Below are positions 13,165 through 31,110 of a stretch of DNA of 64,000 nucleotides, one piece after another. The position numbers were made by a program, and so were the translations under genes. How positions within the stretch are numbered: position 1 is the stretch's first letter; each line of letters opens with the position of its first letter. The stretch is from Candidatus Poribacteria bacterium (GTDB taxonomy: Bacteria; Poribacteria; WGA-4E; GCA-2687025), in assembly GCA_028818695.1 (NCBI GenBank), contig JAPPNK010000026.1, positions 135,164 to 199,163 on the forward strand, given 5' to 3'. The notes beneath the pieces were generated by a model. The model saw only the letters and a list, made by a program, of their open reading frames with translations, was not told the DNA's origin and did no database searches.

Positions 13165-14565
13165 TCATTCTTTTTCGGCGCGGCCGGGACCTCGCGCTTG
13201 ATCTTTCAGCTGCGCGTCAAAGCGGCGCGCCGCTCCGGTCAAGCGCTCCACGACCGCTTCGTTCGCTTCTGCCGCATTCTCCGACTCGGCGATGTCGGCG
13301 TCCAGCTGATACAGCTCGGCGGGGTTTTTGTTCTTCTCGTTGGCGCCGCCCGCTAAATGCAGTTTCCAGTTGCCGCGGCGGACGGCGCGCAGATTGGCTC
13401 CCCTGTAAAAATAAAAATGCCTATCCGGCGCAGACGCCTCAGGGTCGCGCAGCGTCTCCCCGACATCTTCGCCGTCGATGGCGCGTTCCGGGAGATCGGA
13501 GCCGGCAAGCGCGGCGATGGTCGGCAGCAGGTCGATGGAGCTGACAACCTCGGAGCAGACCGTTCCCGCCGGTATGGTTCCCGGCCAGCGCATGACGCAC
13601 GGGACGCGGAAGCCGCCCTCATAGACGCTGAATTTGCCGCCGCGCAGAGGAAGGGCGCATCCGCCGTCCTCCTTTTTTTGGAGCCAAGGTCCGTTGTCGG
13701 AGGTGAAGACGACGAGCGTGTTTTCGTCGATGCCAAGCTCGCGCAGCGTTTCCAAGATGCGCCCTGTCGACCAGTCGATCTCTTCAATGGTGTCGCCGTA
13801 GAGGCCGCGTTCGGACTTCCCGACAAACCCTTCGGAAGCGTAGAGCGGCACATGCGGCATGGTGTGAGCGAGGTAGAGAAAGAAGGGGCTGTCATGGTTG
13901 CCGCGTATGAAGCGCAGTGCCTCTTCGGTGTAGCGCTGCGTCAGCGTCTCTTGGACAGCGGGGCGCTCAATGATCTCTTCGTTGCGCATGATCGGCACAT
14001 TGAAGATGCGTCCGTTTTCAGTTTGAACCGCGTCCATGTCGTTCGAGTAAGGGATGCCGAAGTAGGAATCGAAGCCGTGCGCTGTCGGAAGAAACTGGGG
14101 CAGATGTCCGAGGTGCCATTTTCCGACGCATGCGGTCGCGTACCCTTTTTTCTTTAAGAGGCTCGCGATGGTCGTTTCGCTGGGGTCGAGTCCGATTACG
14201 TTGCCAGGGAAGAGAACGGAGGTGATGCCGACGCGCGGCGGGTAGCAGCCTGTCAACAGGGCGGCGCGGGAAGGGGAGCAGATAGAGGCGGCGACATAAA
14301 AATCGGTGAGGCGCATGCCCTCTTCAGCCATCTGGTCGATTTGCGGCGTCTTGATGTTCGGCGAGCCGAAGCAGCCCAGATCCTGATACCCCTGATCGTC
14401 CGTGAAGATGACGACAATGTTGGGCAGGTCGGCCGGTTCGCTTTCTGCCTTGTTTTCGTTCGCCGCGCCGGTTTGAGAGGCGGCATGCGAGGCGGCCATG
14501 GCGGACGCCGCGGCTGTTTTGATGAAGTCGCGCCGAGTGGATTCGTCTGCGCGCTCTGTCGTCAT
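13165..14565 (-). CDS. formylglycine-dependent sulfatase (arylsulfatase family) with Tat signal
   Basis: RRDFIK twin-arginine signal; CSPSRAALLTG sulfatase signature (C-x-P-x-R). Confidence 0.85.
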   Translation of the reverse strand: MTTERADESTRRDFIKTAAASAMAASHAASQTGAANENKAESEPADLPNIVVIFTDDQGYQDLGCFGSPNIKTPQIDQMAEEGMRLTDFYVAASICSPSRAALLTGCYPPRVGITSVLFPGNVIGLDPSETTIASLLKKKGYATACVGKWHLGHLPQFLPTAHGFDSYFGIPYSNDMDAVQTENGRIFNVPIMRNEEIIERPAVQETLTQRYTEEALRFIRGNHDSPFFLYLAHTMPHVPLYASEGFVGKSERGLYGDTIEEIDWSTGRILETLRELGIDENTLVVFTSDNGPWLQKKEDGGCALPLRGGKFSVYEGGFRVPCVMRWPGTIPAGTVCSEVVSSIDLLPTIAALAGSDLPERAIDGEDVGETLRDPEASAPDRHFYFYRGANLRAVRRGNWKLHLAGGANEKNKNPAELYQLDADIAESENAAEANEAVVERLTGAARRFDAQLKDQARGPGRAEKE

Positions 14566-14604
14566 AAGACGCTCCCTTTCGATGGTTCCGTTCTGCTGCG
14601 CATC

Positions 14605-17590: not shown

Positions 17591-19036
17591 TCAGCTGTTT
17601 CCTTCATCTGCGCTTGCGGTTTTATCCGCCGCGCGCAGCAGCGTTTTGGATGGATCCACGCCGCAGTGTTCAAATAACAGAATCGGGTCCATGGGTATGC
17701 GAGATCGTCCGTTATCCCTTCCAACAAAAATTCCGTCCACAATCTTCGTAGATCTCATAGGGGATCCTTTAAGCGACTTCGGCTCGGAATTGACGATAAA
17801 GCGCTTTCTAGACTTTGACAGAATCGGCATCTTGTCTGACGTCAGGCGGCCCTGCTCATACAGCCATCCTGCGATTTCACTCAGAATATCGTTCCAAGAA
17901 CGTATATCAATTTCTTTCCCGTCAGGAAATCGTATGGCGGAAGGCGGGGGCGCATTTCTAGGCGGCTTGCATTCAGGCAGCGGCGTCCATCCGTCAGTCG
18001 AAGGCGAGTCTGGAATTGGCGTCGGGGTTGGAGCCTGTTTTGGCTCTGTCGGCGGAACGGGAGTCGGTTCAGGGTCTCTTGACCGCTTCAAATAAATATG
18101 GGAGTTATCGATACCGCAGTTATGGGTCAGAGCTTTTATATTTTCCAAATGCCGCATGGAACTTCCGTGCTTTGAAACATAAATGCCGTGCGCAATTTTG
18201 ACGGGCAACTTCATGTCTTTGCCCGTATGCTCGATCGGTTCCGAATTTGCAACGTAGGCGTCGCTAGTCAATCTCTTAATCGGCATCTGATCAGACGTCA
18301 ACAGCCCTTTTGAATGGAGCCATTTGGCAAGTTCCACATGAAGATCAGTCCAGTCTTGGATTGGAATCTCGCTTTCATCGGGGAATCTGATCGACGCAGG
18401 CACATATTCGTAGACTTCAAAGTAGGTCACCAGAAATCGCGATAGCGCGACCCATTTGTATTCTTCGGAAGGTCTTGTCGTAGGGACAGAAAGCGGTTCT
18501 GGAATTGGCGCCGGGGGCGGATCAAGCTTTTGCTTAGGCTCAGACGCCATAAAAGGTCGATTCGCCGCCGCGGGATTCCATGACGCGAGATTCGGCCGCC
18601 AAAGCGTCAGCAGCTGAAGCGCGCATTCATGGGTCGGCGTATCGTTAATGGCGACGCTCAGCAGGCGCTGATCGTCAACGGCATGCAGCTCCCACTTATC
18701 ACCGTCGGCAAGGCAGGCGTATGCGATCCCCGCTTCTCTTGCGCAGGTAAACAGATCGGTTCGGGCGGCAACGAGCGGGTCGCCCAGTTTCTTGATTTGG
18801 ACGAGAGCGGCAGGCTCTCCGTATGCGGCAAGCAGCGCGTAGTCGAACACATGCTCATTCAGCCGGTAGTCAGACAGTACCGCGTCAGGGTCGGCTGTGT
18901 CCCATCCAAGAGCGCGCAGCAGCGGATCCACAAGAGCGGCGCGCGTCCGCGTTCTGCTTTCGCGCAGAAAGGCGTCATGTTTCAGTATGCGCTTCTTTAG
19001 TGTTTCAATCGTTTCGGCAAGGGCGTCTAAGTTCAT
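17591..19036 (-). CDS. HsdR-N/Mrr-like PD-(D/E)xK nuclease-fold protein with two copies of an uncharacterised ~110-aa C-terminal domain (paralogue A)
   Basis: N-terminus TRTRAALVDPLLRALGWD ... DYALL ... LVQIKK (D...QxK) as in HsdR N-terminal/Mrr_cat domains. Pro-rich linkers. Repeated domain RFPD(G/E)(S/K)EI...W.D......W......LT.D.MPI ... CG(V/I)D.S. AT-richer than the genome average. Confidence 0.6.
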   Translation of the reverse strand: MNLDALAETIETLKKRILKHDAFLRESRTRTRAALVDPLLRALGWDTADPDAVLSDYRLNEHVFDYALLAAYGEPAALVQIKKLGDPLVAARTDLFTCAREAGIAYACLADGDKWELHAVDDQRLLSVAINDTPTHECALQLLTLWRPNLASWNPAAANRPFMASEPKQKLDPPPAPIPEPLSVPTTRPSEEYKWVALSRFLVTYFEVYEYVPASIRFPDESEIPIQDWTDLHVELAKWLHSKGLLTSDQMPIKRLTSDAYVANSEPIEHTGKDMKLPVKIAHGIYVSKHGSSMRHLENIKALTHNCGIDNSHIYLKRSRDPEPTPVPPTEPKQAPTPTPIPDSPSTDGWTPLPECKPPRNAPPPSAIRFPDGKEIDIRSWNDILSEIAGWLYEQGRLTSDKMPILSKSRKRFIVNSEPKSLKGSPMRSTKIVDGIFVGRDNGRSRIPMDPILLFEHCGVDPSKTLLRAADKTASADEGNS

Positions 19037-20070
19037 CCGTCATCCCCCTCGGCAACGTTGGCTGTGATCAAATACACCTCGGACGGATCAACGCCGCCAT
19101 GCTTCAGCAAAACATTAATGTTGTTTCGGGCGATCTTTGGCCATATGTCATGCTTTTCGACAAAGTATCGGCCGTTCTGGATGCTTTCAGGACTTACCAT
19201 CGGCTTTCCATTCCGATGAACCTCGGAAGTGTGAATGATGTACCTACCGGTAGACGCAAACATCCGTATCGGTATATTCTCGTCGGTCAACTTTTGATTT
19301 TGAAACAGCCATTCCGCTGTCGCTACCATCAGCCCCGCCCATTTATGGTCTTCGTCCGTTGGCGCAATTTCGCTTCCGTCTGGAAAACGAAGCGCCTTCG
19401 GGATCGCTTTCCATAACGGGGAGCTGTATCCGACCGCTTTGTACTCCGATATCGGCGTCGATTTTTCAGAAGGATCCGATTCTGATTTTTGGGTCGACTC
19501 TGTATCGGGCAGGGAGTCAGGTTCTTCGTCTTCTGGGACGTGTATTTCAATAATCGGCGGATTGACCTTCTTCACTTTGCCCGACGCTAAATTTAGCCGC
19601 CAGAGCGTCAGCAATTCCAGCGCGCATTCATGCGCCTCATCCTTCGAGATGGAGACGTTTATCATCCGCCGGTCGTTGAGATGTCCGCGCTCAAAGACGC
19701 TGTACAGCTCCCACTTATCGCCGTTGGTCAAACCCGCATACTCAATGCCCTCAGTGTTGGCGTAGTTGAGCATCTGCATGCGATGGTTGTCCAACGCCTC
19801 GCCCAGTTTTTTCGCCTCAAAGACGGCGGCGGGCTTGTCGTCCCCGTCTAGCAGGGCGTAATCGGCGCGCAGATTGCCGACATTGTATTCCAGCGTGACA
19901 AGCGCAGGATCGCCGGGATCCCATCCGAGCGCTTTGAGGATCGGGTTGATGAGCGCCCCGCGCGTCCGCGTTTCATTCTCGCTCAATGTCTGCCGATGTT
20001 GCTCGATTCGTTCTTTGACCGTTTCAATCGCTTCGATGAGAGGTTCTAACACCGCGCCTCTTTCTAACAA
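19033..20070 (-). CDS. HsdR-N-like PD-(D/E)xK nuclease-fold protein with one copy of the same C-terminal domain (paralogue B)
   Basis: ETRTRGALINPILKALGWD ... ADYALLDGDDKPAAVFEAKK (D...EAK). 4-nt overlap with the paralogue A start; divergently transcribed from the Gp37/Gp68 gene. Confidence 0.6.
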   Translation of the reverse strand: MLERGAVLEPLIEAIETVKERIEQHRQTLSENETRTRGALINPILKALGWDPGDPALVTLEYNVGNLRADYALLDGDDKPAAVFEAKKLGEALDNHRMQMLNYANTEGIEYAGLTNGDKWELYSVFERGHLNDRRMINVSISKDEAHECALELLTLWRLNLASGKVKKVNPPIIEIHVPEDEEPDSLPDTESTQKSESDPSEKSTPISEYKAVGYSSPLWKAIPKALRFPDGSEIAPTDEDHKWAGLMVATAEWLFQNQKLTDENIPIRMFASTGRYIIHTSEVHRNGKPMVSPESIQNGRYFVEKHDIWPKIARNNINVLLKHGGVDPSEVYLITANVAEGDDG

Positions 20071-20131
20071 GTTTTAAGACATGCTTGGCATTCTAGCGCG
20101 CTTTTTGCGCTGCCGCAAACCCGTTTCGCTC

Positions 20132-20160
20132 TTGACACCCAACCGCGCTGTCCATACAGT
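20132..20160 (+). promoter_or_regulatory. candidate sigma70-like promoter for the Gp37/Gp68 gene
   Basis: TTGACA - 17 nt - TACAGT, about 41 nt upstream of ATG 20202, in a divergent intergenic region. Confidence 0.25.
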
Positions 20161-20201
20161 ATCTACAAGACGAGATTTGTATCGGCTTAGGGCAAACCGC
20201 A

Positions 20202-21008
20202 ATGTCATCGATTGAGTGGACAGACGCAACATGGAACCCTGTAACCGGATGCAGCCGAGTTTCCCCCGGCTGCGACAACTGCTATATGTTCGCCATGTAC
20301 CCCCGTCTGCGGGCGATGAACGTTAACGGCTACGAAACCTCGCCTGACGACGTCCAGATGATGCGGGGGCGGCTGAACGCCCCCTTGTCATGGGTGAAGC
20401 CGCGCCTCGTCTTTGTCAACAGCATGTCTGACCTGTTTCATCCGAAGGTTGATTTTGAGTTCATTGCCGAGATCTTTCATGTGATGCAGGAGGCGTCGGA
20501 GCGGCGGGGGCATCTGTTTCAGGTGTTGACAAAGCGGCCGGGGCGCGCTGTCGCATGGTGGAAGCGGTATGCGGGCGAGTTTTCGGACAGCTGGCCGGAG
20601 CGCGTGTGGATCGGCGTTTCGGTTGAGACGCAGAAATATGCGCCGCGTTTGACGGTGTTGTCCCGCTTGCCGGCGAAGGTGCGGTTTGTGTCGGCGGAGC
20701 CGCTTCTGGGAGAGCTGGATCTGTCGGAATGGCTGGAGGCGGGGGAGCTTCATTGGGTGATCGCCGGCGGAGAGAGCGGAGCGGGCGACCGACCGATGAA
20801 ATTGGAATGGGCGCGTCGGCTGCGCGATCAATGTTTAGCGTCGGGCGTCCCCTTCTTTTTAAAGCAGCTGGGCGGCGTCTGGAATAGACGGCGAGGCGAC
20901 GCCGCTGTATTGGACGGACGGCGCTGGAAGGAGACGCCTACTTGTCAAAGCTCTTCCCATATCTATTCATACGGCGCTTCAAAAAGATCTAATCATATCT
21001 TATTTTAA
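20202..21008 (+). CDS. phage Gp37/Gp68 family protein (DUF5131) with three-Cys motif
   Basis: N-terminal IEWTDATWNPVTGC...PGCDNCY (C-x6-C-x2-C) is the hallmark of Pfam Phage_Gp37Gp68; about 265 aa. Confidence 0.8.
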   Translation: MSSIEWTDATWNPVTGCSRVSPGCDNCYMFAMYPRLRAMNVNGYETSPDDVQMMRGRLNAPLSWVKPRLVFVNSMSDLFHPKVDFEFIAEIFHVMQEASERRGHLFQVLTKRPGRAVAWWKRYAGEFSDSWPERVWIGVSVETQKYAPRLTVLSRLPAKVRFVSAEPLLGELDLSEWLEAGELHWVIAGGESGAGDRPMKLEWARRLRDQCLASGVPFFLKQLGGVWNRRRGDAAVLDGRRWKETPTCQSSSHIYSYGASKRSNHILF

Positions 21009-23375: not shown

Positions 23376-24557
23376 CTATCGGTCAAGATGAAAGATGACG
23401 CGAACAGATGATTCGTCCACTTCTAGCTCCGGCTCCGTGCCGTTGAACTCAAGCATTGCCTTGCGCATGATCGGCCAGCCTCGACCGCGTCGTTCCATGA
23501 GTTTCCGCTCCAACATATAGTTCGCTACCCATTCGTTTCTCGATCGGGGAATCGCTCCTGCGCGAACGCTGGCGGGCGTCATGCTGTTCGGCAGCGCGCC
23601 GGGGCTGGTAACCGCCGCCTGACGTGAAAACACTTCAAAAAGAATCTTGGATCCTATGACTGCATAATCGCGGTGAACAACTGCATTGACCAGCGCTTCC
23701 CTAACCGCTTTTAACGGCAGCAGATGCCTATCTTCTCGATATAAACCTTTGTAAACTTCTTGGCGTCCGAGACCTTGGAACCATCCCTCCGCGCGCTCCA
23801 CCTGTTCGTCCAGCCGCCCCTTCGCTTCGCTGACGATGATCGTCTCTGAAGCTCGATCGCCGCCCGCATAAGCGACGCATTCAATCCAAAAGTTGCCTGT
23901 TTGCGGATAGCGCTGCGGCTCGTTCCCGAACGCGAGAATTCCGTAGAGCGTCGCGCGCCGTTCGCCGTCAGATTCGGCAAGGACGCGGCGGTTGACAAGA
24001 TCGTTTTCCGGGCTTGGCTGAGGGTCTTCCTCCATATCAAGCCCATGCTCCCTCAGATAGTCTCGGAAGCATTCCAAGTTGATGCTTTCCACGCCGGCGG
24101 CTTTTAGGACGCGCTCTTCGGTCATGATATACCCGAAATCGTTGTATAGCCCTTGCAGCTCCGTTGGCGAAGGCTCAACGTTGCTGCGCCCTCGGCGAAC
24201 GAAGACCCTTCCTCCTGTGCGCATCGGTTCAAATCCGCGCTGTCGGGAAACCTCTATCCAGTGAACCCAGCCGTCAGAACTTTCATGACGGCCAAGGCGC
24301 GCGGACACAGGGGCGCTGCAGCCTGTCTGTAGGAATCCGGTCAACCGTTCTTGAACCTTTTCCGCGCCCTCTTTCACTCCGACGATCTCGCGCGTCTTGT
24401 TCTCCACCCCCAATATGACGACTCCGCCCCTCGTATTTGCGAACGCGCACATTGCCTCGCAAATTTTTTTGCCGTCTCCTATGCCTCGCTTGAATTCGAC
24501 CTGGTCGCCTTCACCCGATTCGATTCGTTCGAGTATTTCGAGCCATGTCATTTTCAT
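23376..24557 (-). CDS. AlbA_2 (Schlafen-like) DNA-binding domain + HATPase_c_4 protein
   Basis: N-terminal E..EFK...........AFANT.GG....GV (AlbA_2) and a C-terminal GHKL-like region ending RGRG; 0-10 nt from the upstream ATPase stop (operon). Confidence 0.65.
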   Translation of the reverse strand: MKMTWLEILERIESGEGDQVEFKRGIGDGKKICEAMCAFANTRGGVVILGVENKTREIVGVKEGAEKVQERLTGFLQTGCSAPVSARLGRHESSDGWVHWIEVSRQRGFEPMRTGGRVFVRRGRSNVEPSPTELQGLYNDFGYIMTEERVLKAAGVESINLECFRDYLREHGLDMEEDPQPSPENDLVNRRVLAESDGERRATLYGILAFGNEPQRYPQTGNFWIECVAYAGGDRASETIIVSEAKGRLDEQVERAEGWFQGLGRQEVYKGLYREDRHLLPLKAVREALVNAVVHRDYAVIGSKILFEVFSRQAAVTSPGALPNSMTPASVRAGAIPRSRNEWVANYMLERKLMERRGRGWPIMRKAMLEFNGTEPELEVDESSVRVIFHLDR

Positions 24558-24562
24558 GTCCT

Positions 24563-27361
24563 TCAAAACCCATACTTTACGCGCCGCAGATGAAAAGCAT
24601 AGCCTCCTCCGTCCACCGTTTGAACGATGGCATTGCGAACGGCTGGCTCTTCAATAGCTCCGTCCTGCTCAACCCAGCCATGATTCGCGGTCGCTTCCAG
24701 CTGAATGACCTGATCGGCGTCCCCGTTTACAACGATGTTCGCGTTATGCGTTGCGATAATGATCTGTCGGCGGCCTTTTAGCCGCTTCAACGCCGGCAGG
24801 ATAGCGTCAAATAGAAATCGGTTGTCTATTTCGTCTTCGGGCTGGTCAATCACTAGAGGACGGTTGTCGTCCGTCTCCAACAGCAAGGAGAGCAAGAGGC
24901 TCACCCGTTTGCCTCCAGAGAGCTGATCCAAAGGACGGTATTTGTCTTCTTCTATCTTCGACTCCAATAGATAGCGATCTCCGCAGCGAATCGCCTTTAA
25001 CTCGCGCAGTTTCGAGCGGGTAAGATTCTCTCTAAACGTAGATTGCACAGCGCCGCTCATTCCGACAGACGCTAAATCATCGTTTTCAAAAGCTGCGATC
25101 AACTTGCCGGACGACGGCCGTTCTTTCTGATCGTTCCACCACCTCGTCACTCCCCGCTGATTTAGATTCCTCACAAAGCGGTCAAGAGGCAGCAAATCTC
25201 CCTCGTCAATGCGGCGGGCGGAAATCTGGCCTTCAAACTTTTCAGCAATCGCTTTGATCGCCCGGTCGAAGGCGCGCCGCTGCTCTTCCGCCAGATGTTT
25301 TCTTTCTTCCAGCAGCTTTTCAAGCAAGCTTTCCTCTTTGCGGCGCGTTTCCTGTATTTCACGAAATGCCGCCTCATAACTCTCTAAAAGAGTCGCTTGA
25401 CGGCTCAGCGCCTGAAACTCATCAATCTTGGAGCTGTCCATGCCTTTGGCCGCGAGCTTACGGTTCATATCGCCGCGAACATTCTGCTCATTCGTTTTCA
25501 GAACATCCATGATGGATTCAATGACAGCGTCGGCATTGGTCAGCTCATCCATCGCGTCGCGAATCGAAGCGGCGATGCTTTTCCAACGCGCGCGAAACGC
25601 CTCCGCCTGTTCCTCCACGCCGGCCGCCAACAGCAGATCCGCCAAAGCGCCGTCAATATCGGGCATGTCAATACCTTCGGCAGATTGCAGCGCGCTGTGG
25701 ATTGCTTCGGCAAGATCTTTGGACGCTTCCGCGGAGTCCCGCCAACGCCCCAAGTCCCGCGACGCCCGATGATACTCTTCAATGCCGGCTTCCGAAAAGG
25801 CATCCAAGGCATCGGCGGCGCGGCGGCAGCGCTCACAGGACTGCTCTGCATCTGCAGCTTCTTCATCAAGTTGATCAATCCTCTTGGCAGCATTGCGCAG
25901 CTCATCATCCATCCCGCGCAGCCGCTCATCCCGCACTTCAATTTCGGCCGCCTCGGCAGCTGCGAACCGAGCAAGAACCTCGTCGACCGCATCAGGTTCT
26001 TGAGCGAGTCTTTGAAGTTCATTCTGCGAGAAAAATACGGCAGGCCAGCGGTCAAAATGCTCTGCTGTTGGATCGCCGCCCTTAAGTTCTAACGCGACAT
26101 CAGCCGAGCCGCTGCCGAGAAATCGCTTATAGCCGCGAGATTCGATCTGGTTTTTCAGCTTCTCCATATCATTGCGCTGGTCGTCATCAGGATTATTGCC
26201 AGGCTTTACTTTAGGAAGGGGGGCTCCGATATGAACACGGAGGCCGTCAAGAAACGTGCTTTTACCGGTCATGCTGCCGCCAATGATGCATGTCAAATCG
26301 GGGTGAAAGTCGAAGCGCGTTCCCGAATCGCCGCCAAAGAACGAAGCTTTGCCTTTGACCGTGACCGATCTTAGCCAAGAGTGCTCGCGCGCTGTCTCAT
26401 CGGGCGAGTCTGAAATCTCGACCAGTTTTCCGCTCTCGCTGCGTTCATAAGCGATGCGTATCCGCGAATCGCCGGCGAGAAACGCTTGGCGCAGCGCTTC
26501 GATCCGCGGGCTGGCGAGCTTGAACCAAGTATATTGATTGCCAATTTCCTCAACCAAATTTGCGTCGCTGCAGTGGAACAACGCGTCACGGTACTTTTTC
26601 TTTAAATCATGGTCATTTGAGAACCGATGGTCTTCCAAGACATCTTCAGGAAGCTTTTTGCTGTTAAGGCCTAGACCCGTTAATTCGTCGTGCGGAAAGG
26701 TATCCCAGACTTGCGCTCTTTGCTCCTTTAAAAGGCCTTTCTTGGAAAAGATATGAGGGGCGAGCGCAATATAGCTCCACGGGTTATCTCTGTCATGAAA
26801 CTCACGTAGTTCTTTAAACGCTTCCTTTGCTCTATAGCTAGATATTTGAAGCTCATTGCTTTTCCAAGGTTGCCTGTTCTTCATGACAAGATCGAATGCG
26901 CTTAAATAGGCGTTGCGCCCGATTTCGGGGTCAAACAGAAAAAGCATATGCAGCCCGCCATGACCGTCATGAAGCGACGGCTCGAAGCCTGGGAACACGG
27001 CGTATATCTTTTCTCGGAACGGCTTGCCATCGTCGTCATCGCCTTCGTTCCACTCCTGCACGATCTGCCATACCGCGCTCATGTCGCCGTGATCGCTCAT
27101 GCGCGGTCGGTGCGGCGTTAGACCGAGTACGCGGACGCCCTTTTTCACGGCATTTTGTAGAAATATTCGAGCGTAAGCGCGAAGCTCATCCTCTGACCAG
27201 TCTGATGACGCATTGCAAGGCGGGTTAACGCCTTCCGGAACCTTGACCTGGCAGCCAGGCAGGTCGTCTATCGTATGGATTTGAAGATCCGCCTTGAACC
27301 ACCGCGCGCCAGGCACCTCCTCCCGCCAAAAGTCCGTTTCGTTCCGCTCGAAATCTGCCAT
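24563..27361 (-). CDS. fusion of N-terminal PHP-type phosphoesterase domain with SMC/Rad50-like ABC ATPase (coiled-coil)
   Basis: N-terminus ADLQIHTIDD...LGLTPH...FPGFEPS (PHP-like motifs). Walker A IIGGSMTGKST (about 26255-26285). Long coiled-coil. ABC signature LSGGKRVSL (about 24893-24925). Walker B/D-loop LVIDQPEDEID (about 24824-24856). H-loop IIATHN. Confidence 0.7.
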   Translation of the reverse strand: MADFERNETDFWREEVPGARWFKADLQIHTIDDLPGCQVKVPEGVNPPCNASSDWSEDELRAYARIFLQNAVKKGVRVLGLTPHRPRMSDHGDMSAVWQIVQEWNEGDDDDGKPFREKIYAVFPGFEPSLHDGHGGLHMLFLFDPEIGRNAYLSAFDLVMKNRQPWKSNELQISSYRAKEAFKELREFHDRDNPWSYIALAPHIFSKKGLLKEQRAQVWDTFPHDELTGLGLNSKKLPEDVLEDHRFSNDHDLKKKYRDALFHCSDANLVEEIGNQYTWFKLASPRIEALRQAFLAGDSRIRIAYERSESGKLVEISDSPDETAREHSWLRSVTVKGKASFFGGDSGTRFDFHPDLTCIIGGSMTGKSTFLDGLRVHIGAPLPKVKPGNNPDDDQRNDMEKLKNQIESRGYKRFLGSGSADVALELKGGDPTAEHFDRWPAVFFSQNELQRLAQEPDAVDEVLARFAAAEAAEIEVRDERLRGMDDELRNAAKRIDQLDEEAADAEQSCERCRRAADALDAFSEAGIEEYHRASRDLGRWRDSAEASKDLAEAIHSALQSAEGIDMPDIDGALADLLLAAGVEEQAEAFRARWKSIAASIRDAMDELTNADAVIESIMDVLKTNEQNVRGDMNRKLAAKGMDSSKIDEFQALSRQATLLESYEAAFREIQETRRKEESLLEKLLEERKHLAEEQRRAFDRAIKAIAEKFEGQISARRIDEGDLLPLDRFVRNLNQRGVTRWWNDQKERPSSGKLIAAFENDDLASVGMSGAVQSTFRENLTRSKLRELKAIRCGDRYLLESKIEEDKYRPLDQLSGGKRVSLLLSLLLETDDNRPLVIDQPEDEIDNRFLFDAILPALKRLKGRRQIIIATHNANIVVNGDADQVIQLEATANHGWVEQDGAIEEPAVRNAIVQTVDGGGYAFHLRRVKYGF

Positions 27362-27520: not shown

Positions 27521-28585
27521 TCAGGAAAGGCGCCACAGCCGGACGGCGTCGCAGTTCGTTCCCGCCGCGAGCGTCTTGCCGTCCGGCGAAAACGCGAAAT
27601 CATAGACCGTCAGCGTCATTTCTTCTATCTCGCGGAGCAGCTCCCCGCGCTCCACATTCCACAGCCGCGCCGCGTTGCCGTCGCTCCCGGTCGCCAGCGT
27701 CTTGCCGTCCGGCGAAAACGCCAGCGAAATCACCGCGTCTTTGTTGACGCCCCAAGCGACCGTCTTCGGCGACGGATTGGAGCCTGCAAAAGCCTCCAGC
27801 CGCTCGCCCGTGTCGACCTCCCACAGCAGCGCGGCGTTGTCGTTCCCGCCGCTCGCCAGCAGCGACCCGTCCGGCGAAAACGCGAGCGAGAGGACATCGT
27901 CCGTATGCCCCTTCAATGTTGCCGTCAACGCTTCGGTTTCGATGTCCCGCAACAGGACGGAGCGGTCATGTCCGCCGGCGGCGAGCGTTTTGCCGTCCGG
28001 CGACAAGGCGGCGGCGCCGTTTCCTTCAAAGGTTTTCAACAGCTCGGCGGTCTCAACATCCCACAGCCGAACAAGATTGTCGGCGGCGCCTGTGACGAGC
28101 GTTTTGCCGTCCGGAGAAAAAGCGAGCAGACCGACGGCGCTCTCATGCGGCAGGTTTGTCATCAGCTTCGGCTCCTCAATGCTCTGCTGTTGGACGCTCT
28201 GCCCCCTTATCTTTTCGGTCGTCCAAACGATGACAACCGGCTCATAGGCGTCGGAGTTGACGCTCCATAGATGGACCGCGCTGCCGTCCCCGCCGGAGGC
28301 GAGCGTCTTGCCGTCGGGCGAGAAGGCGACCGTCCGCACAGGTCCATGATGCGCCAGCGATCGGAGATGCGCCCCTGTGCCGGCGTCCCAAAGGCGAACC
28401 GTTCTGTCCCATCCGCCTGTCGCTAACAGCGTTCCGTCCGGCGAATACGCGACCGAGCAGATGTGGCTCGTATGTCCATGAACGGCGACTCCCTCAATAT
28501 AATGGGGAATATGGTACTTGCTTCGCTCAACCTGCCGAGGGCGCATCTTTTCAAGTATGATCGGGTTCATCCATCTCCCATTCAT
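27521..28585 (-). CDS. WD40 beta-propeller protein (paralogue a)
   Basis: 7 WD repeats (FSPDGKTLA.G..D..VRLWD); N-terminal YHIPHYIEG motif shared with paralogues b and c. Confidence 0.85.
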   Translation of the reverse strand: MNGRWMNPIILEKMRPRQVERSKYHIPHYIEGVAVHGHTSHICSVAYSPDGTLLATGGWDRTVRLWDAGTGAHLRSLAHHGPVRTVAFSPDGKTLASGGDGSAVHLWSVNSDAYEPVVIVWTTEKIRGQSVQQQSIEEPKLMTNLPHESAVGLLAFSPDGKTLVTGAADNLVRLWDVETAELLKTFEGNGAAALSPDGKTLAAGGHDRSVLLRDIETEALTATLKGHTDDVLSLAFSPDGSLLASGGNDNAALLWEVDTGERLEAFAGSNPSPKTVAWGVNKDAVISLAFSPDGKTLATGSDGNAARLWNVERGELLREIEEMTLTVYDFAFSPDGKTLAAGTNCDAVRLWRLS

Positions 28586-28740
28586 TGAGAAATGCCGTCT
28601 GTGTCCGAAGCTGTGTTAATCCTTAAAGATAGAACAACGGCAAGGGCGGAGTCGCTCTCGGACAAGTTGAATCGCATCCGCTGTCGGCGCGGTTTAGGCA
28701 GGGCGGGAAGCGTCCGCAGCCCCCGCCCTTTCTCCGCCTA

Positions 28741-29784
28741 TCAGGACAGGTCCCACAGCTGGACGGTGTCATAATGCGTCCCCGCCGCAAGCGTCTTGCC
28801 GTCCGGCGAAAACGCGACATCATAGATTGTTAGCGTCATCCCCTCCAGCTCCCGAATCAGCTCCCGACGCTCCACATCCCAAAGCCGTATTGTGTTGCCG
28901 ATGCTGCCGGTTGCGAGCGTCTTGCCGTCCGGCGAAAACGCGACCGACTCAATCGAGTCCTTGCTGTCTTCCCATACGCGCGTCTTCGGCGACGGCTCCG
29001 ACACGCCGTCAAATGCCGCCAGCCTCTCGCCGCTTTCAATGTCCCACAGCAGGGCGGCGTTGTCCTCCCCGCCGCTGGCGAGCAGCTTTCCGTCCGGCGA
29101 AAAAGCGAGCGAGCAAACGCTGTCTGTATGCCCCTCAAAAGTTTTTGCCAGCTGTTCGGTTTCGATGTCCCACAACAGGACGGAGCGGTCATGTCCGCCG
29201 GCGGCGATCGTCCTGCCGTCCGGCGACAAGGCGGCTGCCCGATTTCCTTCAAAGGTTTTCAACAGCTCGGCGGTCTCGGCATCCCACAGGCGAACAAGGT
29301 TGTCGACGGCGCCTGTGACAAGCGTCTTGCCGTCGGGAGAAAAGGCGGCAGATCTCACCATGCCCCCATGCGGCAGCATTTTATGATGCTTGCGTTCTTC
29401 GAAGCTCTTCCGTTCGACGCGCCGCCCGTCCGGTTCTGTCGACCATGTGGTTGTGATGGAGCTCTCAACGGGTTCATAGTCGACGCTCCATAGCATGACC
29501 TCGTTTTCTTCGGAGCCTGCGGCAAGCGTCTTGCTGTCGGGAGAAAAGGCGAGCGTCCAGACGGACCCTTTCAGCGACGTTGAGCGAATTTGCGCCCCTG
29601 TGTCGGCGTCCCACAGGCGAACTGTCTTGTCCCATCCGCCGGTCGCCAGAAGCTTCCCGTCCGGCGAGAAGGCGACCGAGAAGATATGGCTGTCATGACC
29701 GCTGATGATAATTCCCTCAACATAATGCGGAATCTGGTAGTTTTTCGATTCCAGCTGTCGGGCGCGCATCTCTTGAAAAGCCAT
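28741..29784 (-). CDS. WD40 beta-propeller protein (paralogue b)
   Basis: First about 100 aa identical to paralogue c; 7 WD repeats. Confidence 0.85.
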   Translation of the reverse strand: MAFQEMRARQLESKNYQIPHYVEGIIISGHDSHIFSVAFSPDGKLLATGGWDKTVRLWDADTGAQIRSTSLKGSVWTLAFSPDSKTLAAGSEENEVMLWSVDYEPVESSITTTWSTEPDGRRVERKSFEERKHHKMLPHGGMVRSAAFSPDGKTLVTGAVDNLVRLWDAETAELLKTFEGNRAAALSPDGRTIAAGGHDRSVLLWDIETEQLAKTFEGHTDSVCSLAFSPDGKLLASGGEDNAALLWDIESGERLAAFDGVSEPSPKTRVWEDSKDSIESVAFSPDGKTLATGSIGNTIRLWDVERRELIRELEGMTLTIYDVAFSPDGKTLAAGTHYDTVQLWDLS

Positions 29785-29875
29785 GATATTTGTCCTCCGT
29801 TCATCTGAAAGCGATCAATTCGTATGCTTGTCTGTAGAAGATAACATGGAGGCGGAATCAAATCAAGCGGACGGG

Positions 29876-30042
29876 CTGACCTTAGCGCTTTAGTTGGGAC
29901 ATGTCGACATGCGAACGCGGACGTCGTCTGTTGGACTCTGGATTCCCGCTTTCGCGGGAATGACGGCCTGGTTGGCGGCGCCTGTTTCCCATAAATAGAG
30001 CGATCATTCGTTCAAATGTCCCAACTTTACGTATGAGGTCGG
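29876..30042. mobile_element. MITE-like element copy with target-site duplication
   Basis: Inverted orientation relative to copy 1; flanked by direct GGACGGG / GGACGGG. The paralogous site upstream of WD40-c (about 31196-31210) has a single GGACGGG directly followed by TTTCCGCCCC (empty site). Confidence 0.75.
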
Positions 30043-30069
30043 GACGGGTTTCTGCCCCTTCGCCGCCTG

Positions 30070-31110
30070 TCAGGACAGGTCCCACAGCTGGACGGTGTCG
30101 TAGTATGTCGCCGCCGCGAGCGTCTTGCCGTCTGGCGAAAATGCGACGTCATAGATTGTCAACGTCATCCCCTCCAGCTCTCGAAGCAGCTCCCTGCGCT
30201 CCACATCCCAAAGCCGTATCGTGTCGCCGGCGCCGGTCGCAAGCGTTTTGCTGTCCGGTGAAAATGCAAGCGAGCGGACATTGCCTCTGTAAATCCCCCA
30301 TTCGTCCTCCGTTGCCGACGACGGATCGGTTCCTTCAAAAGCCGCCAGCCGCTCGCCCGTCTCGGTCTCCCACAGCAGGGCGGCGTTGTCGTTCCCGCCT
30401 GACGCCAGCAGCCTTCCGTCCGGCGAGAACGCGAGCGAAAGGACCTCGTCCGTATGCCCCTTAAAAATTTTTGTCAGCTGTTCGGTTTCGATGTCCCACA
30501 ACAGGACGGAGCAGTCATGTCCGCCGGCGGCGATCGTCCTGCCGTCCGGCGACAAGGCGGCCGCCCGATTTCCTTCAAAGGTTTTCAACAGCTCAGCGGT
30601 CTCAACATCCCACAGCCGAACAAGGTTGTCGACGGCGCCTGTGACAAGCGTCTTGTTGTCGGGAGAAAAGGCGGCAGATCTCACCATGCCCCCATGCGGC
30701 AGCATTTCATAATGCTTTTGCGTTTCTCGAATCTCTTCCGTTTGACGCGCCGCCCGTCCGGTTCTGTCGATCACGGTTGTGACGGCGCGCCGAACGGCTT
30801 CATGGCTGACGCTCCATAGCATGACCTCGTTTTCTTCGGAGCCTGCGGCGAGCGTCTTGCTGTCGGGAGAGAAGGCGAGCGTCCAGACCGACCCTTTCAG
30901 CGACGTTGAACGAATTTGCGCTCCTGTGTCGGCGTCCCACAGGCGAACCGTCTTGTCCCATCCGCCGGTCGCCAGAAGCTTCCCGTCCGGCGAGAAGGCG
31001 ACCGAGAAGATATGGCTGTCATGACCGCTGATGATAATTCCCTCAACATAATGCGGAATCTGGTAGTTTTTCGATTCCAGCTGTCGGGCGCGCATCTCTT
31101 GAAAAGCCAT
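30070..31110 (-). CDS. WD40 beta-propeller protein (paralogue c)
   Basis: 7 WD repeats; near-identical to b over the N-terminal third; upstream region (31111-31200) near-identical to that of b (29785-29875). Confidence 0.85.
   Translation of the reverse strand: MAFQEMRARQLESKNYQIPHYVEGIIISGHDSHIFSVAFSPDGKLLATGGWDKTVRLWDADTGAQIRSTSLKGSVWTLAFSPDSKTLAAGSEENEVMLWSVSHEAVRRAVTTVIDRTGRAARQTEEIRETQKHYEMLPHGGMVRSAAFSPDNKTLVTGAVDNLVRLWDVETAELLKTFEGNRAAALSPDGRTIAAGGHDCSVLLWDIETEQLTKIFKGHTDEVLSLAFSPDGRLLASGGNDNAALLWETETGERLAAFEGTDPSSATEDEWGIYRGNVRSLAFSPDSKTLATGAGDTIRLWDVERRELLRELEGMTLTIYDVAFSPDGKTLAAATYYDTVQLWDLS

What the first reader, a model, noticed from the sequence alone, without database searches (positions are those of the whole stretch)
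24563..27361. Fused PHP-phosphoesterase / SMC-Rad50-like ABC ATPase in an operon with an AlbA_2-HATPase protein: candidate SbcCD-like single-polypeptide nuclease system
The 932-aa protein has PHP-like metal-site motifs at its N-terminus (DLQIHT, LGLTPH, FPGFEPS). After them comes a complete Rad50/SbcC-type ATPase: Walker A GGSMTGKST, a long coiled coil, the signature LSGGKRVSL, Walker B VIDQPEDE and the H-loop ATHN. A phosphoesterase-nuclease domain fused to an SMC-like ATPase would be a one-protein analogue of SbcD+SbcC, with a PHP nuclease replacing the calcineurin-like one. I believe comparable architectures have been noted in comparative-genomic work as TrlF-like ATPases, but function is unknown to me. 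It is tightly coupled (0-10 nt) to a downstream AlbA_2/HATPase_c_4 gene. It sits in an AT-richer island directly downstream of three WD40 genes on the same strand. The context (nuclease paralogues, Gp37/Gp68, RM systems nearby) suggests an anti-phage or DNA-surveillance role.
Basis: partly seen in the sequence, partly recalled or inferred. Interest (0 to 1): 0.75.

Follow-up and report, generated by a model that had tools for sequence, protein, structure and literature searches.

The report
PHP-ATPase gene paired with Schlafen RNase
The 932-residue gene is a real fusion of a nuclease-like domain to a Rad50/SMC-like ATPase, from a named but unstudied family related to the anti-phage protein Ppl, and it is almost always followed by a Schlafen-type RNase/ATPase gene, so the two probably form an undescribed two-gene anti-phage cassette that moves between bacterial phyla.

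Summary
Window 24563-27361(-) encodes a 932-aa protein with every quoted motif. It scores above NCBI's cut-off for the TrlF family (NF045780, 392 vs 350 bits).

- **N-terminus:** a divergent PHP domain. Pfam PHP misses it. It matches the Ppl model's N-terminus and aligns (hhalign 96%) motif by motif to a phage TrlF that passes Pfam PHP.

It is a "Schlatpase", a Schlafen RNase domain plus a GHKL ATPase, with the Ex4ExK and ExxxN motifs intact.

The pair is a unit:
- The partner lies directly downstream in 73 of 80 relatives from about nine phyla.
- The two genes co-evolve (Mantel r 0.76).
- The pair recurs at ~25% identity inside type I restriction operons of Citrobacter and Methylomonas.

The WD40 genes are only local scenery.

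One Acidimicrobiia clade has lost the PHP metal ligands but keeps the ATPase and Schlafen motifs invariant.

Best reading: a defence cassette in which the SMC-like ATPase senses aberrant DNA and drives a PHP exonuclease and a Schlafen tRNase. Function is untested. I rate it a new variant of a known kind.

The parts
24563..27361 (-). TrlF-family gene (932 aa): PHP-like domain fused to an SMC/Rad50-type ABC ATPase
   Evidence: ORF. NCBIfam NF045780 matches end to end at 392 bits against a cut-off of 350. Full-length homologues exist.
26462..27310 (-). N-terminal PHP-like phosphoesterase domain (aa 18-300). Ligand positions read D25 Q27 H29 H84 E127 H138 H203 H263 D266 N268.
   Evidence: The N-terminus matches the Ppl model in 28 of 28 clade members, best E 3e-11. 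hhalign against a Pfam-PHP-positive TrlF gives probability 96%, E 4.7e-9, with all motifs in register. The AF2 model shows alternating strand-helix elements. Pfam PHP itself does not hit.
27272..27289 (-). PHP motif I, DLQIHT: an HxH motif whose first His is replaced by Gln
   Evidence: Consensus is DLHIHT; Q occurs in 10 of 81 relatives and arose at least 4 times.
25997..26371 (-). ABC head, N-terminal half (aa 331-455), with Walker A GGSMTGKST (26255-26281) and Q-loop Q446
25232..25996 (-). Antiparallel coiled-coil insert (aa 456-710), with no conserved CxxC hook
   Evidence: Long helices 456-709 in the AF2 model. This is the least conserved region, with 38% mean pairwise identity. The only invariant Cys residues are C358 and C793, both outside the coil.
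24566..25231 (-). ABC head, C-terminal half (aa 711-932): signature LSGGKRVSL (24896-24922), Walker B VIDQPEDE (24830-24853), H-loop ATHN (24743-24754)
   Evidence: Pfam AAA_21 and SMC_N. S815, G816, G817, D839, E842, D846 and H872 are invariant in 83 of 83. This is the best conserved region, at 68%.
24552..24565 (-). Gene junction: TrlF stop codon TGA, a GAAGGA Shine-Dalgarno-like hexamer across it, and 11 nt to the partner's ATG
   Evidence: Sequence read directly. Gaps of -1 to 32 nt occur in nearly all relatives.
23376..24551 (-). Partner gene (391 aa): a stand-alone 'Schlatpase', i.e. a Schlafen/AlbA_2 RNase domain plus a GHKL ATPase
   Evidence: Pfam PF04326 and PF13749. PADLOC SLFN-type pAgo N-terminus, 2.3e-17. 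PDB sequence hits to SLFN5/8/11/14 and to 3lmm. Architecture as defined in 10.64898/2026.05.29.728809.
24489..24512 (-). Schlafen catalytic motif EGDQVEFK, of the form Ex4ExK
   Evidence: The motif is defined in PMC13056530. E, E/D and K are invariant in 70-71 of 71 partners.
23664..23699 (-). GHKL N-box EALVNAVVHRDY (ExxxN; ATP/Mg ligands by analogy with RzAgo E314/N318)
   Evidence: E and N are invariant in 71 of 71. Their role in RzAgo is described.

Best explanation
Window 23376-27361(-) is a mobile two-gene cassette, most likely an anti-phage or anti-mobile-element defence system.

**Gene 1** is a TrlF-family protein.
- It has a divergent PHP-type metal phosphoesterase domain. The nearest characterised relative is the ssDNA 3'-5' exonuclease domain of the defence protein Ppl.
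- This domain is fused to an SMC/Rad50-type ABC ATPase whose head is split by a coiled coil.

**Gene 2** is translationally coupled to gene 1. It is a stand-alone 'Schlatpase': a prokaryotic Schlafen RNase domain with an intact Ex4ExK site, joined to a GHKL ATPase with an intact ExxxN site.

**Proposed mechanism (inferred, not shown).**
1. A TrlF dimer uses its ATP-gated head and coiled coil to detect foreign or aberrant DNA. Candidates are free 3'-OH ends or ssDNA produced during phage replication or packaging, as reported for Ppl and for SMC-like sensors such as Lamassu.
2. Detection has two outputs. The cis PHP domain degrades DNA ends. The Schlatpase is licensed, for example released from TrlF and allowed to form its ATP-driven oligomer, and cleaves tRNA. 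That stops translation (abortive infection).

In this window the PHP site carries H27Q and a terminal DxH-to-DxN change. Its catalytic competence is therefore uncertain, and the Schlafen RNase may be the main effector.

**Shown here:** domain identities, motif conservation, gene coupling, co-inheritance, mobility and RM linkage.
**Inferred:** the defence function, the DNA trigger, the tRNA target and any physical coupling between the two proteins.
For: **Identity**
- NF045780 (TrlF) matches full length above its cut-off. Sub-threshold hits go to the sibling families Spaf_1101 and Ppl. PADLOC Ppl scores 7e-31 and LmuB 7e-15.
- PHP link: Ppl-model hits in 28 of 28 N-termini. hhalign gives 96% probability against a phage TrlF that passes Pfam PHP, with HxH, H, E, H, H and SD-x-H in register.
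- Partner: Pfam PF04326 plus PF13749, with the Ex4ExK and ExxxN motifs.

**The two genes behave as one unit**
- The partner lies directly downstream in 73 of 80 genome loci, typically with a gap of 32 nt or less.
- No other neighbour recurs in more than 8 loci.
- Distance matrices of the two proteins correlate (Mantel r = 0.76; 0 of 2000 permutations reach it).
- A search from the partner's side found TrlF upstream in 5 of 5 places for P0148.
- The same pair, at about 25% and 27% identity, sits between hsdS and hsdR on Citrobacter IncC plasmid pCFR-0b27 and in Methylomonas sp. MO1.

**Constraint**
- ABC motifs are invariant in 83 of 83, and Schlafen and GHKL motifs in 71 of 71.
- dN/dS in the window's lineage is 0.10-0.35 for all domains and 0.20 for the partner.
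- A monophyletic clade of 11 Acidimicrobiia members has lost 4-7 of 10 PHP ligand positions. It keeps the partner and all ATPase motifs.

**Defence context**
- Relatives occur in about nine phyla at 45-57% identity.
- GC3 is low relative to neighbouring genes.
- A Res(III)-Mod(III)-TrlF-Schlatpase block occurs in 6-8 loci from different phyla.
- TrlF lies in a P2-like phage hotspot between gpA and gpQ. On plasmids it lies next to BrxL and next to a type II RM.

**Literature**
- Ppl is a validated defence gene, described as an NTP-inhibited ssDNA 3'-5' exonuclease that senses 3'-OH ends (PMC12904381; PMC11482910).
- Bacterial Schlafens are phage-activated tRNases (PMC13056530).
Against: - No experiment exists on this family. 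No paper in the library mentions TrlF as a protein.
- Pfam PHP does not hit the window protein, its clade, or five other TrlF members. A profile search against PDB sequences found nothing. hhalign against a DnaE2 PHP domain was not significant. The structure model is below pLDDT 50 for residues 200-330 and the last 60 residues.
- Two of the canonical PHP ligands are substituted in the window (Q27, N268).
- Both genes can persist alone.
  - Six informative loci have intact TrlF without the partner, as do two syntenic relatives of the window's own lineage.
  - The partner homologue P0124 is solo.
  - Most of the 930 plasmid TrlF hits have no detectable partner.
- In PMC13056530 only two of the seven tested Schlafen constructs gave protection. 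Neither was a HisKinase-type fusion, the class to which this partner belongs.
- Ppl is reported to be inhibited by NTPs, whereas Schlatpase assembly needs ATP. A simple shared nucleotide switch is therefore not obvious.
- The immediate surroundings in this window are largely metabolic genes.
- Only 2 weak hits were found in 2.9 million viral contigs.
Confidence: 0.55

Rival explanations
1. These are two independent single-gene defence systems that merely travel together. TrlF works alone as a Ppl-like exonuclease, and the Schlatpase works alone as a self-contained Schlafen system, with no functional coupling between them.
For: - Ppl is a single-gene system.
- TrlF is solo in the P2-like phage hotspot and on most plasmids.
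- Stand-alone Schlatpases are the commonest Schlafen architecture.
- TrlF persists intact without the partner in L021, L029, L030, L038, L046, L079, L082 and L098.
- The partner homologue P0124 is solo.
Against: - Adjacency is 92% among informative loci, in a fixed order with gaps mostly of 32 nt or less.
- The two genes co-evolve (Mantel r = 0.76).
- The same order recurs at about 25% identity inside hsd operons of two Gammaproteobacteria.
- A clade with a dead PHP site keeps both the invariant ATPase motifs and the partner. This is hard to explain if TrlF's only output were its own nuclease.
Confidence: 0.2
2. The pair is a guard of restriction-modification systems, analogous to PrrC. It is held silent by an RM complex and is unleashed when a phage inhibits restriction.
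For: - The pair is embedded between hsdS and hsdR in Citrobacter and Methylomonas.
- It lies directly downstream of a type III res-mod pair in 6-8 of 80 loci.
- PrrC and RloC set a precedent: an ABC ATPase plus tRNase linked to type I RM (PMC3458546, PMC2610378).
Against: - In the window and in about 70 of 80 loci no RM genes adjoin the pair.
- The nearest RM-like gene in the window is 6 kb away on the other strand, with WD40, GH172 and DapB genes in between.
Confidence: 0.12
3. The partner is a regulator or antitoxin-like silencer of TrlF rather than an effector. TrlF would then be the only toxic or nuclease component.
For: - AlbA_2/HATPase_c_4 proteins have long carried annotations other than nuclease: 'RNA-binding domain-containing protein' and 'ATP-dependent DNA helicase RecG', and one homologue is annotated as a helix-turn-helix protein.
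- That they were also annotated as transcriptional regulators (COG2865) is my recollection. My search found no paper on prokaryotic systems that mentions COG2865.
- The downstream position with translational coupling is typical of toxin-antitoxin-like pairs.
Against: - This partner ends at residue 391, right after the GHKL domain, and has no HTH.
- The Schlafen catalytic triad and the GHKL ATP ligands are invariant in 71 of 71 partners. That fits an enzyme, not a passive binder.
- TrlF survives intact where the partner was lost, so it is not lethal alone.
Confidence: 0.08
4. The pair is a housekeeping DNA-repair machine: a one-polypeptide SbcCD/Mre11-Rad50 analogue that processes hairpins or breaks in the host chromosome.
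For: - The head and coiled coil are Rad50/SbcC-like.
- PHP domains act as proofreading exonucleases in polymerases.
- GenBank names such as 'DNA repair protein' are attached to relatives.
Against: - Distribution is patchy and incongruent across phyla.
- Codon composition looks foreign.
- Relatives lie on conjugative plasmids and in a phage hotspot, next to RM and BREX genes.
- There is no conserved zinc hook.
- The gene is paired with an RNase-type partner.
- The PHP site has eroded in a whole clade.
Confidence: 0.05

Closest known systems
TrlF family AAA-like ATPase (NCBIfam NF045780)
   Same: The window protein matches the 944-position model end to end at 392 bits against a cut-off of 350. 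Length is similar (about 870-930 aa). It has the same PHP-like N-terminus, split ABC head and highly conserved C-terminal block. Members are found on plasmids and in phage hotspots next to RM and BREX genes.
   Different: The family has a name but no published function that I could find. The window belongs to a deep subclade, about 25% identical to enterobacterial members. In that subclade the last DxH His is Tyr, and Asn in the window. The Schlatpase partner is near-obligatory in the subclade, whereas most plasmid TrlF genes are solo.
Ppl (polymerase/histidinol-phosphatase-like) single-gene anti-phage protein
   Same: Same two-module architecture of a PHP domain plus an ABC-type NTPase. The Ppl HMMs hit both the N-terminus (28 of 28 clade members) and the C-terminal head. 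Ppl is experimentally anti-phage and is described as an NTP-gated ssDNA 3'-5' exonuclease that senses 3'-OH ends. It was first reported by Gao et al. according to 10.1101/2022.08.27.505566.
   Different: The window scores 150 bits against a cut-off of 1000 for NF042955, so it is not a Ppl orthologue. Ppl acts alone, whereas this gene is coupled to a second enzyme. The window's PHP site has two ligand substitutions.
Prokaryotic Schlafen nucleases (pSlfn) and the 'Schlatpase' supradomain (SLFN AlbA_2 + GHKL ATPase)
   Same: The partner has PF04326 plus PF13749, the Ex4(E/D)xK catalytic motif and the GHKL ExxxN motif. Stand-alone Schlatpases without an HTH are described as common and associated with defence islands.
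   Different: Published active examples are fused in cis to their sensors (Ig-like, DUF262, pAgo). The SLFN-pAgo study reports no conserved genetic partner for SLFN-pAgos. Here the candidate sensor is a separate SMC-like protein encoded upstream. No activity has been shown for this subfamily.
Lamassu (LmuB SMC-like sensor plus LmuA effector) and Wadjet (JetC)
   Different: There is no LmuA- or LmuC-like gene and no kleisin. The effector here would be a Schlafen RNase. TrlF also carries its own nuclease-like domain in cis.
RloC and PrrC anticodon nucleases
   Same: An ABC or Rad50-like ATPase that responds to DNA controls a tRNase. They are linked to type I RM loci, always for prrC and only rarely for rloC (PMC3458546, PMC3874168, PMC2610378). 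The gammaproteobacterial TrlF-Schlatpase pairs sit inside hsd operons.
   Different: In RloC and PrrC the ATPase and the RNase are one polypeptide, and the RNase is a different, unrelated domain from Schlafen (HEPN-type, from my own knowledge). RloC has a zinc hook and TrlF has none. There is no sequence relationship beyond the ABC fold.
SbcCD / Mre11-Rad50
   Same: Rad50/SbcC-like head and coiled coil by fold, combined with a metal-dependent phosphoesterase.
   Different: The nuclease is PHP-type rather than calcineurin-like, and it is fused in cis. No CxxC hook is conserved. The distribution is that of a mobile element, not a housekeeping gene.
OLD (P2) and related ABC-ATPase/TOPRIM systems
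   Same: An ABC ATPase that surveys DNA structures is coupled to a tRNA-cleaving effector and causes abortive infection (10.64898/2026.07.10.737580). It is likewise found in P2-type hotspots.
   Different: The effector fold is TOPRIM, fused in cis. The ATPase lacks a long SMC-like coiled coil and a PHP domain.

Membership tests
TrlF family (NCBIfam NF045780) | Whole-protein HMM score at or above the curated cut-off, with an end-to-end match | tested here: met
   392.0 bits against a cut-off of 350. Residues 18-931 match model positions 2-944.
TrlF family (NCBIfam NF045780) | Complete ABC-type ATPase motif set (Walker A, Q-loop, signature, Walker B, D-loop, H-loop) | tested here: met
   All are present and invariant in 83 of 83 relatives.
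PHP superfamily (Pfam PF02811) | Pfam PHP HMM hit at or above the gathering score | tested here: not met
   No PF02811 hit for the window protein, for 28 clade N-termini at E up to 10, or for 5 other TrlF members. Only weak PHP_C hits were seen, in 7 of 28.
PHP superfamily (Pfam PF02811) | Homology to a bona fide PHP domain by profile comparison | tested here: met
   hhalign of the clade profile against the N-terminus of Yersinia phage TrlF gives probability 96%, E 4.7e-9, over 226 columns. That protein passes PF02811 (30.3 bits against 26.4) and also hits CehA/McbA, RNase RNM and nucleoside bisphosphate phosphatase models. A direct comparison with a DnaE2 PHP domain was not significant.
PHP superfamily (Pfam PF02811) | Full set of metal ligands (HxH, H, E, H, H, and a terminal H...D-x-H) | tested here: inconclusive
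   The window has D25 Q27 H29 H84 E127 H138 H203 H263 D266 N268. The first His is Gln, and the last His is Asn (Tyr in the clade consensus, His in the phage TrlF). Gln and Asn can still bind metal, so activity cannot be judged from sequence.
PHP superfamily (Pfam PF02811) | (beta/alpha)7 barrel fold | tested here: inconclusive
Ppl anti-phage protein (NCBIfam NF042955 / PADLOC PDLC02208) | HMM score at or above the curated cut-off | tested here: not met
   150.3 bits against a cut-off of 1000. The PADLOC Ppl match (7.3e-31) has two matched stretches; the best covers residues 768-926, and the other's position was not reported.
Ppl anti-phage protein (NCBIfam NF042955 / PADLOC PDLC02208) | Acts as a single-gene system | tested here: not met
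   A conserved second gene is present in 73 of 80 relatives.
Schlatpase / pSlfn (partner gene) | SLFN AlbA_2 (PF04326) plus GHKL HATPase_c_4 (PF13749) in one protein | tested here: met
   1.8e-18 and 4.4e-16, both above gathering scores.
Schlatpase / pSlfn (partner gene) | Catalytic Ex4(E/D)xK motif | tested here: met
   EGDQVEFK at aa 14-21. Invariant in 70-71 of 71 partners. The motif is defined in PMC13056530.
Schlatpase / pSlfn (partner gene) | GHKL ATP/Mg ligands (E and N of the N-box) | tested here: met
   EALVN at aa 285-289. Invariant in 71 of 71. Their role was shown for RzAgo E314/N318.
Schlatpase / pSlfn (partner gene) | tRNA cleavage and ATP-driven oligomerisation | not testable with these tools
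   This needs biochemistry.
SbcCD / Mre11-Rad50 | Rad50-type head with a long coiled coil | tested here: met
SbcCD / Mre11-Rad50 | CxxC zinc hook at the coiled-coil apex | tested here: not met
   The window has CERC in the N-terminal part of the coil (C509-C512), but neither Cys is conserved. The only invariant Cys residues are C358 and C793.
SbcCD / Mre11-Rad50 | Mre11/SbcD calcineurin-like nuclease partner | tested here: not met
   No such domain occurs in the protein or among the neighbouring ORFs I scanned on either side.
Lamassu | LmuB together with an LmuA effector (and LmuC) | tested here: not met
   There is only a partial LmuB HMM match. The partner hits no Lamassu model.
PrrC / RloC | ABC ATPase fused in cis to an anticodon-nuclease domain | tested here: not met
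   PADLOC and NCBIfam listed only other families for either protein. The RNase-like domain is Schlafen-type and lies on a separate polypeptide.

The most novel reading that the evidence does not exclude
TrlF-Schlatpase is a previously unrecognised class of two-component immune system. In it, an SMC/Rad50-like DNA sensor controls a Schlafen tRNase in trans.

It would be a split counterpart of RloC built from unrelated parts, with a Lamassu-style logic of sequestering and then releasing the effector.

The ancestral PHP exonuclease would be a second, dispensable output. It has already become a pseudo-enzyme in one Acidimicrobiia clade.

This would be the first case of a stand-alone Schlatpase with an identified partner sensor. 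Stand-alone Schlatpases are the commonest prokaryotic Schlafen architecture, and this might explain why such proteins looked inactive when tested alone.
Probability: 0.35. Interest if true: 0.75.

Novelty: new variant of a known kind. Interest (0 to 1): 0.6.

Why it matters
Each part is known:
- the PHP-ATPase defence protein Ppl
- the named but unstudied TrlF family
- bacterial Schlafen tRNases
- the 'Schlatpase' supradomain

Their fixed pairing is not described in any paper or PADLOC model I could search.

If the pair works as one system, three things follow.
1. It would give a partner and a candidate activation route to the most abundant class of prokaryotic Schlafen proteins, the stand-alone SLFN-GHKL proteins. 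These make up more than half of about 100,000 proteins in one survey.
2. It would add a DNA-sensing-to-tRNA-cleavage circuit built from SMC-like and Schlafen modules, both of which have eukaryotic immune or repair counterparts.
3. It would provide a natural series for dissecting which output matters: intact PHP, Q27 variants, a clade with fully eroded PHP, and lineages that lost the partner.

Cultured carriers exist: Citrobacter plasmid pCFR-0b27 and Methylomonas sp. MO1. The idea is therefore directly testable.

The clade's spread across about nine phyla is also a clear example of horizontal exchange of defence genes. From the MAG names these appear to be largely sponge-associated bacteria, which would make it exchange within one habitat.

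Tried and rejected
2. **PHP by direct searches.**
   - Pfam at E up to 10 on 28 N-termini gave nothing for PF02811.
   - A profile against PDB sequences gave nothing.
   - hhalign against a DnaE2 PHP domain was not significant.
   - Only the transitive route through a PHP-positive phage TrlF worked.
3. **First genome scan, with the single protein.** It found nothing. The alignment-based scan worked.
4. **WD40 genes as part of the system.** Rejected. They have no hits in the 80 loci and occur only in the window's syntenic relatives.
5. **A conserved third gene.** Rejected. All-against-all clustering of flanking ORFs gives at most 7-8 loci for any neighbour, namely type III Mod and Res.
6. **An alternative partner in loci lacking the Schlatpase.** None is shared.
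7. **Zinc hook.** The window's CERC is not conserved.
8. **Phage-borne origin.** Only 2 hits in IMG/VR, neither with the partner. The pair is absent from 5,426 E. coli genomes and present in 1 plasmid at the DNA level.
9. **Promoter and terminator scan.** Counts did not exceed those in shuffled sequence, so it was uninformative.
10. **Origin of the name 'TrlF'.** Not found. All literature hits were for the spectroscopy acronym TRLFS or were irrelevant.
11. **Papers combining AlbA_2, PHP and ATPase, or Schlafen and Ppl.** No paper describes the pair.

Full report
**1. The observation**

Window 24563..27361(-) is an ATG-initiated ORF of 932 aa.
- DLQIHT (aa 25-30), LGLTPH (79-84), FPGFEPS (123-129)
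- Walker A GGSMTGKST (361-369)
- signature LSGGKRVSL (814-822)
- Walker B VIDQPEDE (837-844)
- H-loop ATHN (870-873)

The next ORF downstream hits Pfam SLFN_AlbA_2 and HATPase_c_4, both above gathering scores. It runs 23376..24551 from the ATG that gene callers use, or to 24566 from an overlapping TTG.

The junction reads TTT-TGA-AGG-ACA-TGA-AAA-TGA-CA. A GAAGGA hexamer lies across the stop codon, 7 nt before the ATG. This fits translational coupling.

Three WD40 genes precede the ORF on the same strand.

The pair has 54.5% GC against 58.8% for the window. Its GC3 is 0.58-0.61 against 0.71-0.80 for the neighbouring genes.

**2. What gene 1 is**

NCBIfam places it in the TrlF family. The match is end to end (residues 18-931 on model positions 2-944) at 392 bits, above the curated 350. 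Two sibling models hit below threshold: Spaf_1101 (186 of 475 bits) and the anti-phage protein Ppl (150 of 1000 bits). PADLOC's best hits are Ppl (7e-31), mad3 and LmuB.

- The head is split by roughly 255 residues of long helices (aa 456-710).
- No CxxC hook is conserved. The only invariant cysteines, C358 and C793, lie outside the coil.
- Walker A, Q-loop, signature, Walker B, D-loop and H-loop residues are invariant in 83 of 83 relatives.

*The PHP question.* Direct tests fail.
- Pfam PF02811 does not hit the window protein, any of 28 clade N-termini even at E up to 10, or five other TrlF members.
- A clade profile finds nothing among PDB sequences.
- The structure model is below pLDDT 50 for residues 200-330, so fold searches are silent on this domain.

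Indirect evidence is consistent.
- All 28 N-termini hit the Ppl model (best 3e-11).
- A TrlF member encoded in Yersinia phage vB_YenM_42.18 scores 465 bits on NF045780. It passes Pfam PHP (30.3 bits against 26.4) and hits other PHP-type hydrolase models.
- The clade profile aligns to that N-terminus with hhalign probability 96%, E 4.7e-9, over 226 columns.
- The motifs are in register: DLHIHT with DLHIHS, TPH with TDH, PGFE with PGIE, GLHLLFLF with HLLVYF, LAPHI with LAHIE, and SDAY with SDAH.

I accept a divergent PHP-type domain by homology. The fold itself is not demonstrated here.

In the window two ligand positions are substituted. H27 is Gln. The last His of D-x-H is Asn; it is Tyr in the clade consensus.
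- The Q27/N268 pair is shared with relatives P0002 to P0004; P0005 has Q27 but keeps Tyr.
- H27Q arose at least four times in the clade.
- dN/dS for the PHP segment in this lineage is 0.28-0.35, so the domain is still constrained.

**3. What gene 2 is**

Recent literature makes this more specific.
- PF04326 is the prokaryotic Schlafen nuclease domain, with catalytic motif Ex4(E/D)xK. Bacterial Schlafens are phage-activated tRNases. The commonest architecture is a fusion to a histidine-kinase-like ATPase (PMC13056530).
- A 2026 preprint names the PF04326+PF13749 combination the 'Schlatpase' supradomain.

The window's partner has:
- EGDQVEFK (Ex4ExK) at aa 14-21
- EALVN (ExxxN) at aa 285-289
- no C-terminal HTH

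Both motifs are invariant in 71 of 71 partners. PADLOC's best hit is the N-terminal part of a pAgo model (2.3e-17). PDB sequence hits are SLFN5/8/11/14 and the uncharacterised protein 3lmm. The partner is therefore a likely enzyme, not an accessory binder.

**4. The two genes are one unit**

An alignment-based scan of one genome per species returned 80 loci at 43-57% identity. They come from Acidobacteriota, Chloroflexota, Actinomycetota, Alpha- and Gammaproteobacteria, Latescibacterota, Gemmatimonadota, Verrucomicrobiota, Spirochaetia and Rhodothermales. Many bear sponge-symbiont names such as Candidatus Poriferisodalis. The sponge habitat is my inference from the names.
- The Schlatpase gene lies immediately downstream in 73 of the 80 loci, mostly with gaps of -1 to 32 nt.
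- One further locus ends too early to tell, and six truly lack the partner.
- No other flanking gene recurs in more than 7-8 loci.
- WD40 genes never recur.
- Pairwise distances of the two proteins correlate (Mantel r = 0.76; 0 of 2000 permutations).
- From the partner's side, TrlF was upstream in 5 of 5 places for P0148. The partner homologue P0124 was solo.

The same gene order also occurs at only about 25-27% identity in cultured Gammaproteobacteria.
- On Citrobacter IncC plasmid pCFR-0b27 the order is hsdM-hsdS-TrlF-Schlatpase-hsdR-SprT.
- Methylomonas sp. MO1 has the same arrangement.
- The Citrobacter partner also keeps both motifs.
- Photorhabdus carries a decayed 115-aa remnant of the partner, and Acinetobacter has none.

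**5. Defence context**
- In the clade, 6-8 loci from different phyla carry Res(III)-Mod(III)-TrlF-Schlatpase on one strand.
- Among 98 immediate neighbours of 49 loci, PADLOC finds 9 type III methylases, 5 NERD+UvrD proteins and 4 GajB-like helicases.
- Elsewhere TrlF lies in a P2-like phage hotspot between gpA and gpQ, beside BrxL, and beside a type II RM flanked by recombinases.
- TrlF-like genes hit 930 plasmid records, most of them conjugative.
- Viral contigs hold almost none.

In the window itself the pair sits among metabolic genes but close to other foreign-looking genes: DUF5131, an HSDR_N-like ORF and a 1672-aa type ISP-like enzyme.

Syntenic relatives show the locus is inherited vertically within the lineage.
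- P0002 (81% identical) keeps the pair.
- P0004 and P0005 (68% identical) keep an intact TrlF but have lost the partner.

**6. A natural experiment on which output matters**

Eleven members form one monophyletic Acidimicrobiia clade. They have lost 4-7 of the 10 PHP ligand positions. They retain the domain, all ATPase motifs and the Schlatpase. Conversely, every relative that lacks the partner has an intact or nearly intact PHP ligand set. The numbers are too small for statistics. Still, the pattern suggests that the ATPase plus either effector is sufficient for retention, and that the Schlafen enzyme can be the sole output.

**7. Mechanism (inference)**

The reasoning draws on four precedents:
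- Ppl, an NTP-gated ssDNA 3'-5' exonuclease that needs 3'-OH ends (PMC12904381)
- SMC-like sensors such as Lamassu, which hold a nuclease inactive until DNA is sensed (title of PDB 9hqu; the review)
- RloC, PrrC and OLD, where an ABC ATPase that reads DNA state controls a tRNase
- the ATP-driven assembly of Schlatpase

I propose that a TrlF dimer senses foreign DNA ends or structures. It then trims them with its PHP domain and licenses the Schlatpase to oligomerise and cut tRNA.

My rough confidences are 0.9 that this is a conserved TrlF-Schlatpase unit, 0.7 that it is a defence system, and 0.35 for the specific coupling.

Arguments against:
- Both genes can persist alone.
- In PMC13056530 the HisKinase-type Schlafen fusions were not among the two of seven constructs that gave protection.
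- The nucleotide dependencies reported for Ppl and for Schlatpase point in opposite directions.

**8. Novelty**

The TrlF family is named in NCBIfam but has no literature in the searchable library. Ppl and Schlatpase are each known. No paper or PADLOC model links them. The SLFN-pAgo study explicitly found no conserved partner for SLFN-pAgos. I rate this a new variant of a known kind.

The representative library holds 269 cluster representatives at E up to 1e-30, including about 35 full-length ones at 39% identity or more. The clade is sizeable but not huge.

Noticed in passing
window 33232-38250 (+): A 1672-aa single polypeptide with an Mrr_cat_2 nuclease, ResIII/Helicase_C and an N6 DNA methylase. 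It resembles a type ISP restriction-modification enzyme. It is conserved at the same position in syntenic relatives L082 and L098.
   Followed up: partly
window 27521-31110 (-): Three tandem seven-blade WD40 paralogues of 346-354 aa, 63-85% identical to the copies in relative L082. They are lineage-specific and never linked to TrlF elsewhere. WD40-repeat proteins of this eukaryote-like kind are, as I recall, common in sponge symbionts.
   Followed up: partly
window 17591-21008: A low-GC3 block (0.56-0.70) containing a 481-aa ORF with no Pfam hit, a 345-aa ORF with a weak HSDR_N nuclease-like hit, and a DUF5131 (Gp37/Gp68-like) gene. In relatives the first two are replaced by two HSDR_N-like ORFs of about 330 aa.
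   Followed up: no
window 38340-41078 (+): A run of six small same-strand ORFs of 93-197 aa. The first is a TPR protein. GC3 is variable and generally low. Function unknown.
   Followed up: no
L082 12761-13336; L098 10818-11369; L097 4189-4722: A 177-191-aa ORF with a hydrophobic N-terminus and no Pfam hit. It sits just after TrlF in relatives that lack the Schlatpase, and after the Schlatpase in L097. It is absent from the window, so the locus has been rearranged locally.
   Followed up: partly
L043, L045, L051, L060, L061, L064, L066, L068-L071 (TrlF genes at about 8001-10750): One monophyletic Acidimicrobiia clade (Ca. Poriferisodalis, Ca. Aldehydirespirator) has lost 4-7 of 10 PHP metal-ligand positions. 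It keeps the domain, the ATPase motifs and the Schlatpase partner, so the PHP domain looks like a pseudo-enzyme there.
   Followed up: yes
L085 (Citrobacter pCFR-0b27) 3609-15289; L102 (Methylomonas sp. MO1) 4024-14744: A type I RM operon with the TrlF-Schlatpase pair inserted between hsdS (or an hsdMS fusion) and hsdR, followed by a SprT/YgjP-like metalloprotease gene. A small HTH_73 gene lies upstream in Methylomonas (L102); in Photorhabdus (L101), which has no RM operon, it lies directly upstream of TrlF.
   Followed up: partly
L088 (IMG/VR UViG_3300006987_000044) 33-14204: A TrlF-like 939-aa gene lies inside a block of six large same-strand ORFs (822, 1164, 939, 322, 600 and 781 aa) on a predicted viral contig, with no Schlatpase. 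It may be a different multi-gene system built around TrlF.
   Followed up: no
L099/L100 (Acinetobacter baumannii) 3158-10674: TrlF is preceded by three ORFs without Pfam hits (420, 348 and 418 aa) and followed by a 319-aa ORF, also without hits. This may be another partner set for the family.
   Followed up: no
L075 10752-11568: The Schlatpase match is split into two pieces (aa 5-112 and 214-396). This suggests an internal deletion or a frameshifted pseudogene in this Candidatus Azotimanducaceae MAG.
   Followed up: no
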